This document shows positions 16,133 through 55,514 of a DNA stretch of 64,000 nucleotides, piece after piece (within the stretch, counting starts at the first letter, position 1; the number at the start of each line of letters is the position of its first letter). The translations under genes and the position numbers were made by a program. The DNA is from Eledone cirrhosa. Lineage: Eukaryota. Under the pieces are notes generated by a model. The model made no database searches. It had not been told where the DNA came from and saw nothing but the letters and a program-made list of their open reading frames with translations. Where the stretch lies: positions 113,460,001 to 113,524,000 of the forward strand of contig OZ024744.1 of assembly GCA_964016885.1 (NCBI GenBank), read 5' to 3'.

Positions 16133-16478
16133 TATGTATAGTATATTTGGCAATATACTGTATGTTTAATTAAAAACATTTTGAAGACCTTGCGCTATCA
16201 TTTTTAAAGTAGTGACTATATCACTTACTTCTTTTTTCGGCAAAAGAAGGGAGAGAAGCTGACAGATTCTGTTTCACGCTGTTGGCGATCCTCAGAGCAT
16301 CGTAGTCTCCGCCTTTGCTGAAAATTATAGAGGTTGTATTCTTATAGAATTCCAGTAATAATCAGGAACTTTTGCCGAAAAAAGAAGTGACATAGTCAGT
16401 ACTTTAAAAAGGATAGCGCAAGGTCTTCAAAATGTTTTTAATTAAACATACTGTATATTGCCAAATATACTATACATA
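16133..16478. mobile_element. 346-bp fold-back element (~110-bp inverted arms) with an internal hammerhead ribozyme
   Basis: 16133-16246 is the reverse complement of 16369-16478; TA flanks. Confidence 0.85.
16255..16301 (-). ncRNA. Hammerhead ribozyme, type I, canonical core
   Basis: gct CTGAGGA t-cgc caaca gcg-t GAAA cag aat ctg TC agc. Confidence 0.85.
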
Positions 16479-16489
16479 TATATATCTAT

Positions 16490-16752
16490 ATCACCTTAAT
16501 CACCTTGACCGACCAGTCTGTCGGGCGCCAATTGGCGCCGCTGGTCACAGCACGTCGTGCTGTTTTAGCCATCGATAGCGCCATCCCACTGGCTTGGCGG
16601 GCAGGCCGGTACTGATTTCTACAGCTGAGTAAACTGGAGCAACGTGAAATAAAGTGTTTTGCTCAAGGAAACAACACATCGCCCGGTCCGAGAATTGAAC
16701 TCACAACCTTTCGATTGCAAGTCCAATGCTCTAACCACTAAGCCATGCGCCT
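16490..16752 (-). mobile_element. tRNA-derived SINE; second copy at 62931-63066
   Basis: GGCGCATGGCTTAGTGGTTAGAGC (A-box), GAGTTCAATTC (B-box), TCCTTGAGCAAAACACTTT body. Confidence 0.75.
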
Positions 16753-16856
16753 TCACATATATATATTTCACATGTATATATTTCACATGTATATATTTTA
16801 TCAAATTATTCTATGGAGACATTTTATTGTATATATATATATATATATATATCATA

Positions 16857-18121
16857 ATCTATAAAGCTCAGTGTATGGACATGCTCCTTTGTTATAGAAA
16901 TCTACGATATAGAATTTCTTCAATTGAAATTTACAATTCAGTATTCGAAATAGCTTCGATTGCGTCTTGGCACATCTCATTTTTTCAATTTCACCCACAA
17001 TTACGCAAAAAATAGATAAAACTCAATATTTTACGATTTTTCTCTCTCATTTAAAGTGCTAAACTCTATCCACTACCATTCAAAATCTATACAACTTCAT
17101 ACTTTCTGCTACTTTCTCTTTCCAAGCTTGATGGTGATACTGTCCGTTTTACTCTCTCATATCATCTGCTTCCCTCTATCTACAACCCACACATTTTGCT
17201 ACTTTCTCTTTTATACTTCAAACTTACTGATTTATTTGCAAACGCATACAAACACACACTCACTTCAAATGATAAAAAAACATTTAAAGCAATTAAATAA
17301 CGTGTGTGATTTATAACCACACTAACTTTTAGTTGCTCAATTATTACATTTCATACGAAACGACAATTATTCAAAAGCAACAGATGCATTTATTCAACAA
17401 CAAGCGATAAATCTTTTTTAAAACCTCTCAACGAACATGGATTCTTACAGACTTTGAGTCGAATCGGTTTGAAATTGTGCAAATGTATAAACATGGAACA
17501 TGTGCACACACACAACAACAACAACAATCTGCCTTTTATAGATAATGATAAACAATAATATCCTCTATGAGGTCACTAAACCTGCAAGAAACAGCAGCTA
17601 ACTCTCCCCCATACCACACCCCTCCCTACTGTCTTAAATTTAGAAAACATATCTTCTATGAGGTCACTAAACCTGCTAGAAACAACAGCTAACTCTCCCC
17701 CATATCACACCACTCCCTACTGTCTTAAATTTAGAAAACACATATCCTCTATGAGGTCACTAAACCTGCTAGAAACAACAGCTAACTCTCCCTCATATCA
17801 CAACCCTCCCTACTGTCTTAAATTTAGAAAACACACAGACTACCATGCAGAACAACTCCATCGCAGCTCTGTTGTTCGGCTGGCATCGTCTACGCGCGTG
17901 TTGCGCAAGTACTGTGAAACAATAAATCTCAACACTTTTTTGCACAGAGATAATATCCATAGGCGAAACTACAATTGTCACTGCTGGCGCAGCTCCTGCT
18001 TCCAGGTCTGCAATTCATTCACCCAGTGCTTGGCAGACAAAAAAGTGCTGCCATAAAATGGGTGGTGCAACCTAACTTTGGTAACTTAATGACCCCGAGC
18101 AACGCCGTGCTTTAATGCTAG
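16857..18121 (+). mobile_element. Possible non-autonomous Helitron or composite
   Basis: 3' end CCCGAGCAACGCC..GCTAG|T matches 35908-35934; 5' boundary uncertain. Confidence 0.4.
17558..17835 (+). repeat. Tandem repeat, 3 x ~92 bp
   Basis: ATATCCTCTATGAGGTCACTAAACCTGC...CTGTCTTAAATTTAGAAAAC three times. Confidence 0.9.
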
Positions 18122-52705: not shown

Positions 52706-52799
52706 ACCCCGACAGCTGAGCTCAAGCCGTTTCGACGGCTAATTCTGGACTAAATGAAAATTTATCCTGGTATTTAAATAGCCGATCTTCTCAAGGGGT
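52706..52799 (-). ncRNA. Full three-stem hammerhead, U3-A8 core variant
   Basis: acccc TTGAGAA ga(t)cggcta..tagccgtc GAAA cggct tgagctc agctg TC ggggt. Confidence 0.78.
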
Positions 52800-53503
52800 A
52801 ATTCCATATATGGTCAAAGTGATTGTCAAAAATCAGTAGTAATTCTGTGGTTGCAAATTAGTAGGGGAGATGGTGGCTAAACCTGCCAGTAGGAGAAAGA
52901 GGGGAGGGGTGGAGTAGACCCAATTAAGCGTTGGTAGTGCCAGCTACAGCTGGGCATGAGGTCAAAGAAGATACAGGGGAGGGGGAGGGGGAGAAAGTCG
53001 GAACGGTAGGTAGAACAATGGGGGGCAGAAATATATAGGAAAGAAAAAATACTGAGAGTGAAGAAAAGCAAATAAGTGTAAAGAAAAAAGTAAAGTAAAT
53101 TAAATTCTACGACCTAGGTCTCTAGCTATTGTTAGGCTAGAATAAATAAATAAAGAAAGAAAGAAAGAAGTAAAGAAAGAAATAAAGAAATAACGAAATA
53201 AGTAAAAGAACTAGGTGGGACGAAATAGGCAGGGACCCTTTTAAGAGGTATAAGTACGTAAATGATACGGTGACGGGTCAACAAAAGGGGCCAAAATACT
53301 AAAGAGACTACCACGAAATAACCAATAAAGGTTTCCACCCGGGCACAATGCCAGCAACCACCCAGTGCAGCAAAGTGAACTAGTACGAGATAATAATTCT
53401 TAGATGGAGAACTTTTTTCTATGACAGATATTGCGACAACCAAGACTTCGGCACCAAGGAGAGATTCGGATTTATTACCTACAAATCTCCGCTCCTGAAC
53501 CCC

Positions 53504-55468
53504 TTGCTCGCACCCTTCGAGAATGACCTCTTCCAACTGGTCAAGAACATTAAATTTAAACCCAGACACAACCGATTCCTACAAAAACTCCGTAGCAACT
53601 TAACAGAGTATGATAACACAAATGACATCATGGTGCATTCGGATAAAACTGGGAACCTATACTTTGTCAACCCTGACAGATACCACACACTGATCAGGAG
53701 CAGCCTAAACTCCACCTATAAAAAGGCCAACCACTCTTGCATCGAGGACATAAATCGAGATGGACAACAAATCACCTCCAGCCTCGGGGTCGCCGACCGC
53801 ACGGAACCTCTAGACCCACGGACACCATACTTCACACTGAAGGACCATAAATCCGATTTTGACCGTAAACCCTCTATCAGGCTTATTAACCCAACGAAGT
53901 CCGACATAGGGAGAATCAGCAAAAAAATCCTAGACCGCGTGATACCAAAAGTCAAGCAACACACCCGACTTAGCCTATGGATCAACACCCAGGAAGTAAT
54001 CTCCTGGTTCAGCAATATGGAGGATAAACGAGAAACTAAATTCATACAGTTCGACATAGAGAGCTACTATGCTTCAATCACCTTACCGCTACTTACTGCC
54101 GCCTTGGACTTCGCCGAAACACTTGTGCCCATCACCGACCAGGAAAGAAAAATCATCCTCCACGCCAGGAAGACAGTCTTACTCTTTGACGACTCTAAAT
54201 GGATAAAAAGAGCTCCCGGCTCACCCTTCGACGTCAGCATGGGCGCCACGGATTCGGCGGAGGTCACAGATCTTATAGGATTATTCCTAATAGCCAAACT
54301 CACTGATATGTTTCCTGCATTCGGTGGTGGATTGTACCGTGATGATGGGCTCCTTACCCTTAAAGGGTACAACCCCAATAGTACAGATCGGGTCCGGAAA
54401 CAATTAATCAGATTCTTCCGCGACTGGGGATTTAAAATAACCCTACAAACGTCCCTGACCCAAGTAAACTTCCTGGACGTGACCCTCGACCTCGAAAACG
54501 ACCTGTACTACCCATACAGGAAACCTAATGACAATCTGCACTACATCCACCGCCGATCAAACCATCCTAGGAACATCACAAACAACCTGGTCAAAAACAT
54601 CTCCCTCCGCATATCCCGTTTGTCAGCTAATGAGCGGATATTCGATGAACATGCGCCTTATTACAACCAGGCCCTCAAGCGGAGTGGTTTCCGGGAGGAA
54701 ATATCCTACTGTCCAGCTCCCATTAGCGGAACCAGCAGGAGACACCGCCGCTCACGCAATGTAACATGGTTCAATCCTCCCCACAACGCAGAGGTGACAA
54801 CTCCCATCGGGAAACTATTCTTTAGGCTCATTGAAAAACACTTCCCATTACAACACCGCTACCACAACATAATTAACAAAAATACCATCAAACTCTCTTA
54901 CAGCACTACACCAAACTTCGCACAAAACATCGTCTCCTCTAACAACAAAAAACTCAACCCCAATGGCAGAAATAACCTAAATAGCAGTGGAGAACCGACC
55001 AGGAGGTGTAACTGCCCGGATAGATCTATTTGCCCACTCGACAATAGATGCAGAGACCGTAATGTGATCTACCAGTGCAACGTGAGGACGGATACCTCCA
55101 ACAAAGCCTATATAGGACTTACCGCATGTGACTTCAAGACCCGGCTATACCAACATAGACATACCTTCCGAAACCCGGCCCGGCGTCACGCCACTACACT
55201 TTCGGGCCACATATGGGACCTCAAGGACAACAACATCACCTATGATCTCACTTGGAGATTACTGTCCAGAGCCAATTCTTACACGGGAGGACGCCGTCCG
55301 TGCAATTTATGCTCGGAGGAAACTTTACAAATGCTGTTTTCGACGGACCAACTCCTAAACAAGAAAGATGAACTGGTTACTGCATGTAAACATAGATTGC
55401 GTAGGACTTACCTCGCTCTCAAACCCCATAATGACCCGGGGGGGGGGGGGGGTAGACTAGGGCTATAA
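53504..55468 (+). CDS. PLE reverse transcriptase + GIY-YIG endonuclease (open frame extends upstream to ~53385, RWRTFF motif)
   Basis: SDKT, LKDHK, RLINP, FDIESYY, MG, LYRDD, FLDV, WFNPP, CNC..CPL..C, VIY..YIGLT, CNLC; no internal stop. Confidence 0.9.
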   Translation: MLAPFENDLFQLVKNIKFKPRHNRFLQKLRSNLTEYDNTNDIMVHSDKTGNLYFVNPDRYHTLIRSSLNSTYKKANHSCIEDINRDGQQITSSLGVADRTEPLDPRTPYFTLKDHKSDFDRKPSIRLINPTKSDIGRISKKILDRVIPKVKQHTRLSLWINTQEVISWFSNMEDKRETKFIQFDIESYYASITLPLLTAALDFAETLVPITDQERKIILHARKTVLLFDDSKWIKRAPGSPFDVSMGATDSAEVTDLIGLFLIAKLTDMFPAFGGGLYRDDGLLTLKGYNPNSTDRVRKQLIRFFRDWGFKITLQTSLTQVNFLDVTLDLENDLYYPYRKPNDNLHYIHRRSNHPRNITNNLVKNISLRISRLSANERIFDEHAPYYNQALKRSGFREEISYCPAPISGTSRRHRRSRNVTWFNPPHNAEVTTPIGKLFFRLIEKHFPLQHRYHNIINKNTIKLSYSTTPNFAQNIVSSNNKKLNPNGRNNLNSSGEPTRRCNCPDRSICPLDNRCRDRNVIYQCNVRTDTSNKAYIGLTACDFKTRLYQHRHTFRNPARRHATTLSGHIWDLKDNNITYDLTWRLLSRANSYTGGRRPCNLCSEETLQMLFSTDQLLNKKDELVTACKHRLRRTYLALKPHNDPGGGGGRLGL

Positions 55469-55514
55469 CACCCCACTTGCCGATTTTGCAATGGGTAACC
55501 CCTGCTTGCCAAGG

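What the first reader, a model, noticed from the sequence alone, without database searches (positions are those of the whole stretch)
16133..55514. Recurrent fold-back modules with hammerhead ribozymes and outward-facing 3' ends in TA microsatellite: a candidate non-autonomous PLE/ribozyme system
Seen: mostly unrelated modules share one architecture, with a minus-strand left arm, a plus-strand right arm, and both sense 3' ends running into (TA)n. They lie at 16133-16478, 23950-24140, 24600/34898, 25780/32920, 33036-34690, 36802-38097, 42445-45203, 46260-47142, 47325-48172 and 48440-49466, plus 52612-55514 where only the inverted upstream pLTR is visible. Polarity comes from hammerhead cores and/or GIY-YIG ORFs, and none is convergent. 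About half carry no coding sequence. Established: PLE pseudo-LTRs carry hammerheads, and PLE insertions can have an inverted 5' pLTR. Inference: these are MITE-looking but RNA-mobilised 'fold-back retrozymes', made by PLE RT priming from both DNA ends or snapping back, and possibly propagating as their own class.
Basis: partly seen in the sequence, partly recalled or inferred. Interest (0 to 1): 0.85.

Follow-up and report, generated by a model that had tools for sequence, protein, structure and literature searches.

The report
Back-to-back Penelope and retrozyme insertions
The mirror-image modules are real, but they are the known back-to-back insertion footprint of Penelope-type jumping genes and of small ribozyme-motif repeats they likely mobilise, made anew at each site rather than spreading as a class of their own; their one-long, one-short ends suggest that both cut DNA ends copy the RNA.

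Summary
The inverted, 3'-outward architecture is real and genome-wide: 113 divergent versus 11 convergent close pairs in seven families.

Corrections: 24600/34898 and 25780/32920 are one interrupted insertion. Three non-coding modules (23950, 24600-34898, 48440) are truncated 3' ends of ORF-bearing PLE families. Only 16133, 33036 and 47325 are tandem hammerhead retrozymes.

The 16133 junction occurs once, against 1,135 arm matches. Junctions differ in 45 of 47 and 38 of 50 loci, and recurrent ones cross subfamilies. Head-to-head arms, a one-sided tail and (TA)n targeting are in print (PMC3846280, PMC8557442).

What remains: nearly every fold-back has one short and one tailed end, and either arm can be the longer. 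That disfavours snap-back and fits priming from both DNA ends. One PLE family left at least 13,896 MITE-like mini-palindromes. This scan noted the same pattern before elsewhere in this genome.

The parts
16092..16370 (-). Module A long arm: 317-nt-unit tandem retrozyme family, type I hammerhead motif (core at 16295, predicted cut after 16261); tail 16092-16129
16369..16481 (+). Module A inverted 5'-truncated arm, short end; junction unique in the genome
23949..24003 (-). Module B left arm, short end; 3' stub of the PLE family at 52612-55514, no hammerhead core
24005..24137 (+). Module B right arm with 78-nt tail (24060-24137)
24595..26900 (-). Module C/D left arm: PLE 3' UTR with hammerhead motif at 24677, short end; interrupted at 24895-25760 by other insertions
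31748..34896 (+). Module C/D right arm, interrupted by module E and cut off before its hammerhead
33036..34690 (.). Module E: two-armed tandem retrozyme (unit about 470-530 nt with internal TA run); cores 33365 and 33892 (-), 34372 (+); junction near 33926; tail left
36802..38097 (-). Module F: PLE 3' fragment with GIY-YIG ORF (37456-38091), 41-nt tail at left, inverted arm 38032-38097
42445..45204 (+). Module G: PLE endonuclease end (43880-44170) plus 3' UTR; inverted tailed arm 42445-43539; hammerhead-like motif with CCGACGA core at 42617
46150..47142 (-). Module H: PLE ORF end and 3' UTR with about 110-nt tail at left; inverted arm 46826-47142; U3-A8-type hammerhead-like core
47327..48172 (-). 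Module I: 483-nt tandem retrozyme (cores 47473, 47956), short end left; inverted tailed arm 48059-48172
48437..49471 (.). Module J: near-symmetric fold-back of a PLE 3' UTR; hammerhead core 49381 (+); 90-nt tail left
52612..53403 (-). Module K inverted pLTR arm with tail and U3-A8 hammerhead motif (core 52794); junction 53399-53403
53399..55514 (+). Module K: PLE ORF (frame 53384-55468, 694 aa) with Hydra-clade motifs; 3' end lost in a gap
29086..31400 (.). Extra PLE fold-back nested in the C/D junction (RT fragment on -, endonuclease end in the arms)

Best explanation
Each module is a separate insertion of a Penelope-like element, or of a small hammerhead repeat likely borrowing its enzyme, into (TA)n, and the back-to-back shape likely forms at each insertion because both cut DNA ends prime reverse transcription. 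Shown: divergent arms, two fixed outer ends used one each, variable junctions, arms from the same subfamily, and coding parents for B, C/D, G, H and J. Inferred: the GIY-YIG endonuclease nicks both strands of the symmetric TA target; one 3'-OH starts at the family's short site and the other 35-110 nt further 3' on the RNA; both cDNAs stop at variable points and are end-joined; for tandem retrozymes the template is a multimeric or circular RNA. Odds: ordinary by-products rather than a self-propagating class about 0.92; two-ended priming about 0.65.
For: Close pairs among the first 100 listed hits per family, divergent:convergent: A 16:0, J 23:0, E 16:1, H 14:3, B 25:5, I 9:0, G 10:2. The 5 of 11 convergent pairs I inspected are facing ends of separate neighbouring insertions. 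One short plus one tailed end: A 40 of 47 divergent loci (1 short/short, 1 long/long, 5 uncalled); B 47 of 50 (1 long/long, 2 uncalled); J 19 of 21 (2 unreadable) and H 14 of 14. Arm reaching further 5', tailed versus untailed: A 21 vs 19; B 20 vs 18, 11 equal; H 6 vs 7, 1 equal (read by eye). Junctions: A window junction 1 hit versus 1,135 arm hits; 45 distinct of 47; B 38 distinct of 50; all divergent spacings differ in J (23), E (16) and H (14). The 3 loci with the window's exact B junction have three different arm variants and the tail on both sides. B arms differ by 2.2 of 38 nt within a locus versus 5.2 between loci. In vitro, a PLE protein cleaves and extends both strands, starts at two RNA sites that define the tail, and is predicted to be a dimer (PMC11167929).
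Against: No intermediate was observed, and all mechanism is read from end products. J is biased to a longer tailed arm (14 vs 3, 3 about equal, 1 unclear, by eye), as snap-back predicts. In family A the within-locus arm similarity is barely above between-locus (5.5% vs 6.3% differences, p=0.06). Two A junctions recur (L013/L045, L003/L026), and for L013/L045 shared descent is not excluded. B junctions show no clear microhomology excess (8 of 36 at 2 nt or more, versus 17% simulated). Many insertions have only one visible arm (A: 17 of 64). No parent PLE was identified for A, E or I. PMC11167929 saw no difference in start site between the two strands, so it does not itself explain the one-each rule.
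Confidence: 0.65

Rival explanations
1. Self-priming or snap-back: a single cDNA, or an antisense transcript (Arkhipova 2013), folds on itself and is copied into a hairpin, which the endonuclease then trims at the short site on one arm and inserts.
For: Explains divergent polarity and same-subfamily arms. Proposed in PMC3846280. PMC8557442 ascribes the tail to endonuclease resolution. J favours a longer tailed arm, 14 vs 3.
Against: A self-copied arm must be contained in the first arm, yet the shorter arm often carries a tail that the longer arm lacks (A 19 of 40, B 18 of 49, H 7 of 14). No clear microhomology excess at B junctions. Only a version in which either arm is trimmed at random survives.
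Confidence: 0.25
2. The fold-backs are a self-propagating class ('fold-back retrozymes' or MITE-like units) that are transcribed and re-inserted with their junction.
For: At least 13,896 B mini-palindromes exist, their junctions cluster, and 8 junction strings recur among 50. One A pair shares a junction in the same orientation.
Against: Recurrent B junctions span both main subfamilies and have the tail on either arm. B minis lack the hammerhead core. The A junction is unique. Spacings are all different in J, E and H.
Confidence: 0.05
3. Assembly or long-read fold-back artefact.
For: Palindromes in TA-rich DNA are a known artefact class (general knowledge). No read or contig spanning a whole window module was found.
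Against: Arms differ by 1-7% and are asymmetric in a family-specific way. Later elements are nested inside single arms. Illumina raw reads of three samples from one study show strand-switch joints within family A and both of its termini, and reads cover the centre of the B palindrome.
Confidence: 0.01
4. Two independent insertions or later inverted duplications in TA hot spots.
For: TA tracts hold many neighbouring insertions, which gives the few convergent pairs. The RTE-like LINE pair at 18666-23877 may be of this kind.
Against: Would not give 113:11 polarity, flush junctions, or the one-short/one-long rule.
Confidence: 0.04

Closest known systems
EN+ Penelope-like elements with inverted 5'-truncated copy and one-sided tail (PMC3846280; PMC8557442 Fig. 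2)
   Same: Head-to-head inverted arm at the 5' end, tail on one end only, partial tandems, hammerheads in the pLTR region.
   Different: Tails here are 39-112 nt rather than 30-40. The one-short/one-long rule and its independence of arm length are counted here; I did not find such counts in the passages read.
Hydra clade of PLEs (PMC8557442, section 11)
   Same: Module K has RWR, DKT, CxCX5C, CxxC and CxH motifs, a C-terminal GIY-YIG-type region and (TA)n targets; B is its 3' end; C/D, G, H and J parents align to it at about 35-55% amino-acid identity.
   Different: No tree was built. Some families have long 3' UTRs (units of 4-5 kb versus under 3 kb). Some hammerhead cores are U3-A8 or CCGACGA variants. 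F and 26918 are not Hydra-like.
Animal non-LTR retrozymes (PMC7229834; bioRxiv 10.64898/2026.07.22.740005)
   Same: A (317 nt), E (about 480 nt) and I (483 nt) are non-coding tandem repeats with one type I hammerhead motif per unit.
   Different: Here they insert as two divergent arms with the PLE tail signature. 'Inverted' occurs 0 times in PMC7229834 and only in a reference title of the preprint. E and I are slightly above the 150-450 nt range. Circular RNA and cleavage are untested.
LINE-1 twin priming (recalled, not from a call)
   Same: Both target DNA ends prime on the RNA, giving an internal inversion.
   Different: L1 inversions rearrange without duplicating the 3' end; here both arms carry the same 3' region.
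MITEs (recalled)
   Same: Short, high-copy, inverted-repeat look of B minis in TA.
   Different: Ends are asymmetric, centres are variable, and the parent is a retroelement rather than a DNA transposon.

Membership tests
EN+ PLE insertion | RT plus C-terminal GIY-YIG endonuclease ORF in the family | tested here: met
   Pfam GIY-YIG above cut-off in F and below cut-off in 38316 and 26918. K has no Pfam hit but aligns to 38316 at 38-40% and has YRDD. ORF upstream of B, C/D, G, H and J ends at other loci.
EN+ PLE insertion | Inverted 5'-truncated copy, head-to-head | tested here: met
   113 divergent vs 11 convergent close pairs
EN+ PLE insertion | Tail at one end | tested here: met
   A 40/47, B 47/50, J 19/21, H 14/14
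Hydra clade (module K family) | RWK-like, DKT, CxCX5C linker, CxxC and CxH in the endonuclease | tested here: met
   RWR at 7, DKT at 87, CNCPDRSIC at 542, CNLC at 640, CKH at 668; motifs from PMC8557442
Hydra clade (module K family) | Phylogenetic placement with reference Hydra RTs | not tested
   No reference proteins fetched
Hydra clade (module K family) | Insertion into (TA)n | tested here: met
   Flanks
Non-LTR retrozyme (A, E, I) | Tandem non-coding units of a few hundred nt, each with a type I hammerhead motif | tested here: met
   Units 317, about 480 and 483 nt; arrays at many loci. A and I loci show PLE ORF hits only as separate neighbours; E loci were not scanned for ORFs.
Non-LTR retrozyme (A, E, I) | Self-cleavage and circular RNA expression | not testable with these tools
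   No RNA holder listed for A; needs a bench assay
Self-propagating fold-back class | Many copies sharing one junction, one arm subfamily and one tail side | tested here: not met
   one unresolved A pair
Self-propagating fold-back class | Complete ribozyme in the unit | tested here: not met
   B minis lack the core; others carry motifs, activity untested
MITE | Fixed symmetric terminal inverted repeats and uniform size | tested here: not met
   Asymmetric ends and variable centres

The most novel reading that the evidence does not exclude
A dimeric PLE enzyme primes from both ends of a cut (TA)n target onto one RNA at two fixed start sites, the second set by a small RCTC..GAGY stem-loop just past the short end. 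It does the same on circular or multimeric retrozyme RNA, producing two-armed arrays and tens of thousands of MITE-like palindromes. This would explain the long-unexplained inverted pLTR and tail, and give genomic evidence that PLEs mobilise retrozymes.
Probability: 0.45. Interest if true: 0.7.

Novelty: new variant of a known kind. Interest (0 to 1): 0.4.

Why it matters
It is not a new class of element. It does supply counts that bear on an open question named in PMC8557442: how PLE tandem/inverted structures and tails form. The one-short/one-long rule with no link to arm length separates two-ended priming from snap-back. The K family has near-identical copies (95-99.7% amino-acid identity) and so offers a young enzyme for the published in vitro assay. 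The shared signature ties retrozyme insertion to PLE machinery. It also warns that such mini-palindromes can be mis-annotated as MITEs or microRNA hairpins.

Tried and rejected
Rfam scans found no hammerhead; the weak list was swamped by microRNA models matching TA repeats. The unmasked inverted-repeat search returned almost only TA repeats among the 25 shown. Pfam missed the K-family RT. My strict hammerhead scans passed only A, C, G, I and K motifs; E, H, J and the unpaired ones were read by eye, and minimum-energy folds did not always give the active fold. The first family-A search used the whole module and is biased toward inverted copies, so I repeated it with one arm and an exact 24-mer. 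A genome-wide count of short/long end combinations could not be obtained; the counts rest on fetched loci, mostly the first-listed ones on contig C1. B mini junction clustering is partly built into the pattern (gap up to 30 nt), though 18 of 25 divergent pairs in the unconstrained list were 32-52 nt apart. A microhomology excess at B junctions was not found. No RNA holder was listed. The 19 random 10-kb stretches were used only for incidental copies. F and 29086-31400 were not surveyed genome-wide. Literature searches found no paper proposing twin priming for PLEs; subscription papers and the supplements of PMC8557442 and of the preprint were not seen and may bear on this. The octopus repeat paper PMC13282606 did not discuss the structure in the passages shown; the host was not identified.
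Full report
Setting. The window lies on contig C28 of a 3.0-Gb genome. It is a nest of retroelement fragments in long (TA)n tracts. The host was not identified.

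Observation. After masking simple repeats, self-BLAST gives inverted arms at every two-armed site listed, 93-99% identical over aligned bases. Polarity comes from ORFs for F, G, H and K and from hammerhead motifs for A, C, E, I and J. For B and D it comes by homology to longer copies. All are divergent. Rfam gave no hammerhead hit at gathering score, so the ribozymes are motif calls only. B/K and H have a TTGAGAA core, the U3-A8 covariation described for PLE hammerheads in PMC4209133 (passages). G has CCGACGA in 9 and CTGACGA in 4 of 15 readable copies; 15 more were unreadable.

Corrections to the list. The 25780/32920 arms continue into the 24600-type hammerhead end in 17 of 18 other copies, two of which have a PLE ORF end upstream. 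C and D are therefore one insertion, 24595-34896, later split by module E and other elements. Its right arm stops before the family terminus. An extra fold-back sits at 29086-31400, and five PLE-type elements in the window have no inverted arm.

What the non-coding modules are. B is the extreme 3' end of the family of K: longer loci carry K-like ORFs at 86-99% identity between B ends. J and H ends lie downstream of K-related ORFs at other loci, as do G ends. K shows the Hydra-clade motifs of PMC8557442 (section 11 read; motifs); no tree was made. A, E and I are tandem repeats of 317, about 480 and 483 nt with one hammerhead motif per unit, matching non-LTR retrozymes (PMC7229834, passages; preprint 10.64898/2026.07.22.740005, part 1 of 5 and passages). 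24-mer matches: A 1,135, J 1,039, E 16,034, H 1,904, I 988 and G 4,635 at up to one mismatch; B 52,348 exact. These are matches, not copy numbers.

Polarity genome-wide. Among the first 100 listed hits per family, close opposite-strand pairs were divergent:convergent A 16:0 (within 5 kb); J 23:0, E 16:1, H 14:3, B 25:5 (within 6 kb); I 9:0, G 10:2. The total is 113:11. I inspected 5 of the 11 convergent pairs, and they are facing ends of separate insertions in one TA tract. Not every insertion is two-armed: 17 of 64 A loci show one arm.

Do junctions propagate? The window's A junction occurs once. Of 47 divergent A loci, 45 junction position pairs are distinct. Of the two repeats, one has the tail on opposite arms and one (L013/L045) is unresolved. 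B forms at least 13,896 mini-palindromes. The first 50 have 38 distinct centres, and recurrent centres occur in both main subfamilies and with the tail on either arm. The three loci with the window's exact B junction differ in arm variants and tail side. Divergent spacings are all different in J, E and H; one repeat in I comes from two loci 75 kb apart with the same layout, probably a local duplication.

The informative asymmetry. Each family has two fixed outer ends, 39-112 nt apart. Fold-backs use one of each: A 40 of 47 (1 short/short, 1 long/long, 5 uncalled), B 47 of 50 (1 long/long, 2 uncalled), J 19 of 21 and H 14 of 14. J and H loci were chosen as divergent pairs from the lists. The tailed arm reaches further 5' in A 21 vs 19, B 20 vs 18 (11 equal) and H 6 vs 7, but in J 14 vs 3. 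A hairpin copied from one cDNA cannot put a tail on the shorter arm when the longer arm lacks it, so both arms were probably templated by RNA. B arms share subfamily variants (2.2 vs 5.2 differences per 38 nt); in A this signal is weak (p=0.06). An RCTC..GAGY stem-loop begins 4-6 nt past the short end in 5 of 10 families (0.11 expected from shuffles).

Artefact check. Illumina raw reads from three samples of one study show strand-switch joints in family A (for example 16158/16265 in all three runs, from few start positions) and loose TA ends at the short terminus, with a second loose end at the long one. They also cover the centre of the B palindrome. No read spanning a whole window module was available.

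Literature. PMC3846280 (passages) describes inverted pLTRs, the optional tail and head-to-head arrangement, and proposes antisense self-priming. PMC8557442 (passages and section 11) shows the same structure, (TA)n targeting and hammerheads in the Hydra clade, and calls the mechanism undefined. PMC4209133 notes hammerhead pairs on opposite strands 100-700 bp apart in Schistosoma. PMC11167929 (parts 1-2 of 4) shows cleavage and extension of both strands, two start sites that define the tail, a predicted dimer, and no need for ribozyme cleavage. The last fits the junctions here, which do not sit at the predicted cut site. Searches found no PLE twin-priming paper in the held library. L1 twin priming and MITE features are recalled.

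Verdict. The modules are real and of a known architecture, not a self-propagating class. The added value is the end-pairing rule and its extension to retrozyme arrays, which makes the PLE inversion mechanism testable. Earlier unchecked notes of this scan reached similar readings elsewhere in this genome; they are not counted as evidence.

Noticed in passing
window 18666-23877: Two RTE-like LINE copies head-to-head with a junction near 21538-21541. The arms are 88-90% alike but each is about 91-97% like other copies; none of 39 other loci showed the same junction. A one-off, non-PLE fold-back.
   Followed up: partly
   Followed up: partly
window 25470-25760 and 50212-50382: Stubs of another abundant hammerhead family that elsewhere forms short/long fold-backs with an 88-nt tail.
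   Followed up: partly
window 26900-29033: [quoted passage not shown]
   Followed up: partly
window 38316-41659: Unpaired 5'-truncated Hydra-like PLE with a 1.6-kb 3' UTR and hammerhead core at 41579.
   Followed up: partly
window 26625-26670 and 31935-31985: A B-family stub sits in both arms of module C/D, so it was present in the template before the arms were made.
   Followed up: no
L201:1330-3770: Family A copy whose arms enclose about 2 kb of unrelated sequence, including a short tandem repeat, possibly captured by template switching.
   Followed up: no
L123 and others: New insertions often land in the TA run at the centre or ends of older fold-backs, giving nested palindromes.
   Followed up: no
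window 1786-5244, 7351-11300, 5660-6852 with 11707-14044: An APE-RT LINE with a long open frame, and an LTR retrotransposon sitting inside a split LINE (267-nt direct repeats at 6586 and 11707).
   Followed up: no
window 16616-16766 and 62930-63079: tRNA-derived SINE-like repeat (Rfam tRNA hit at 16688-16745).
   Followed up: no
L086, L194, L198, L200: K-family ORFs 92-99.7% identical to the window's, suggesting recent activity.
   Followed up: partly
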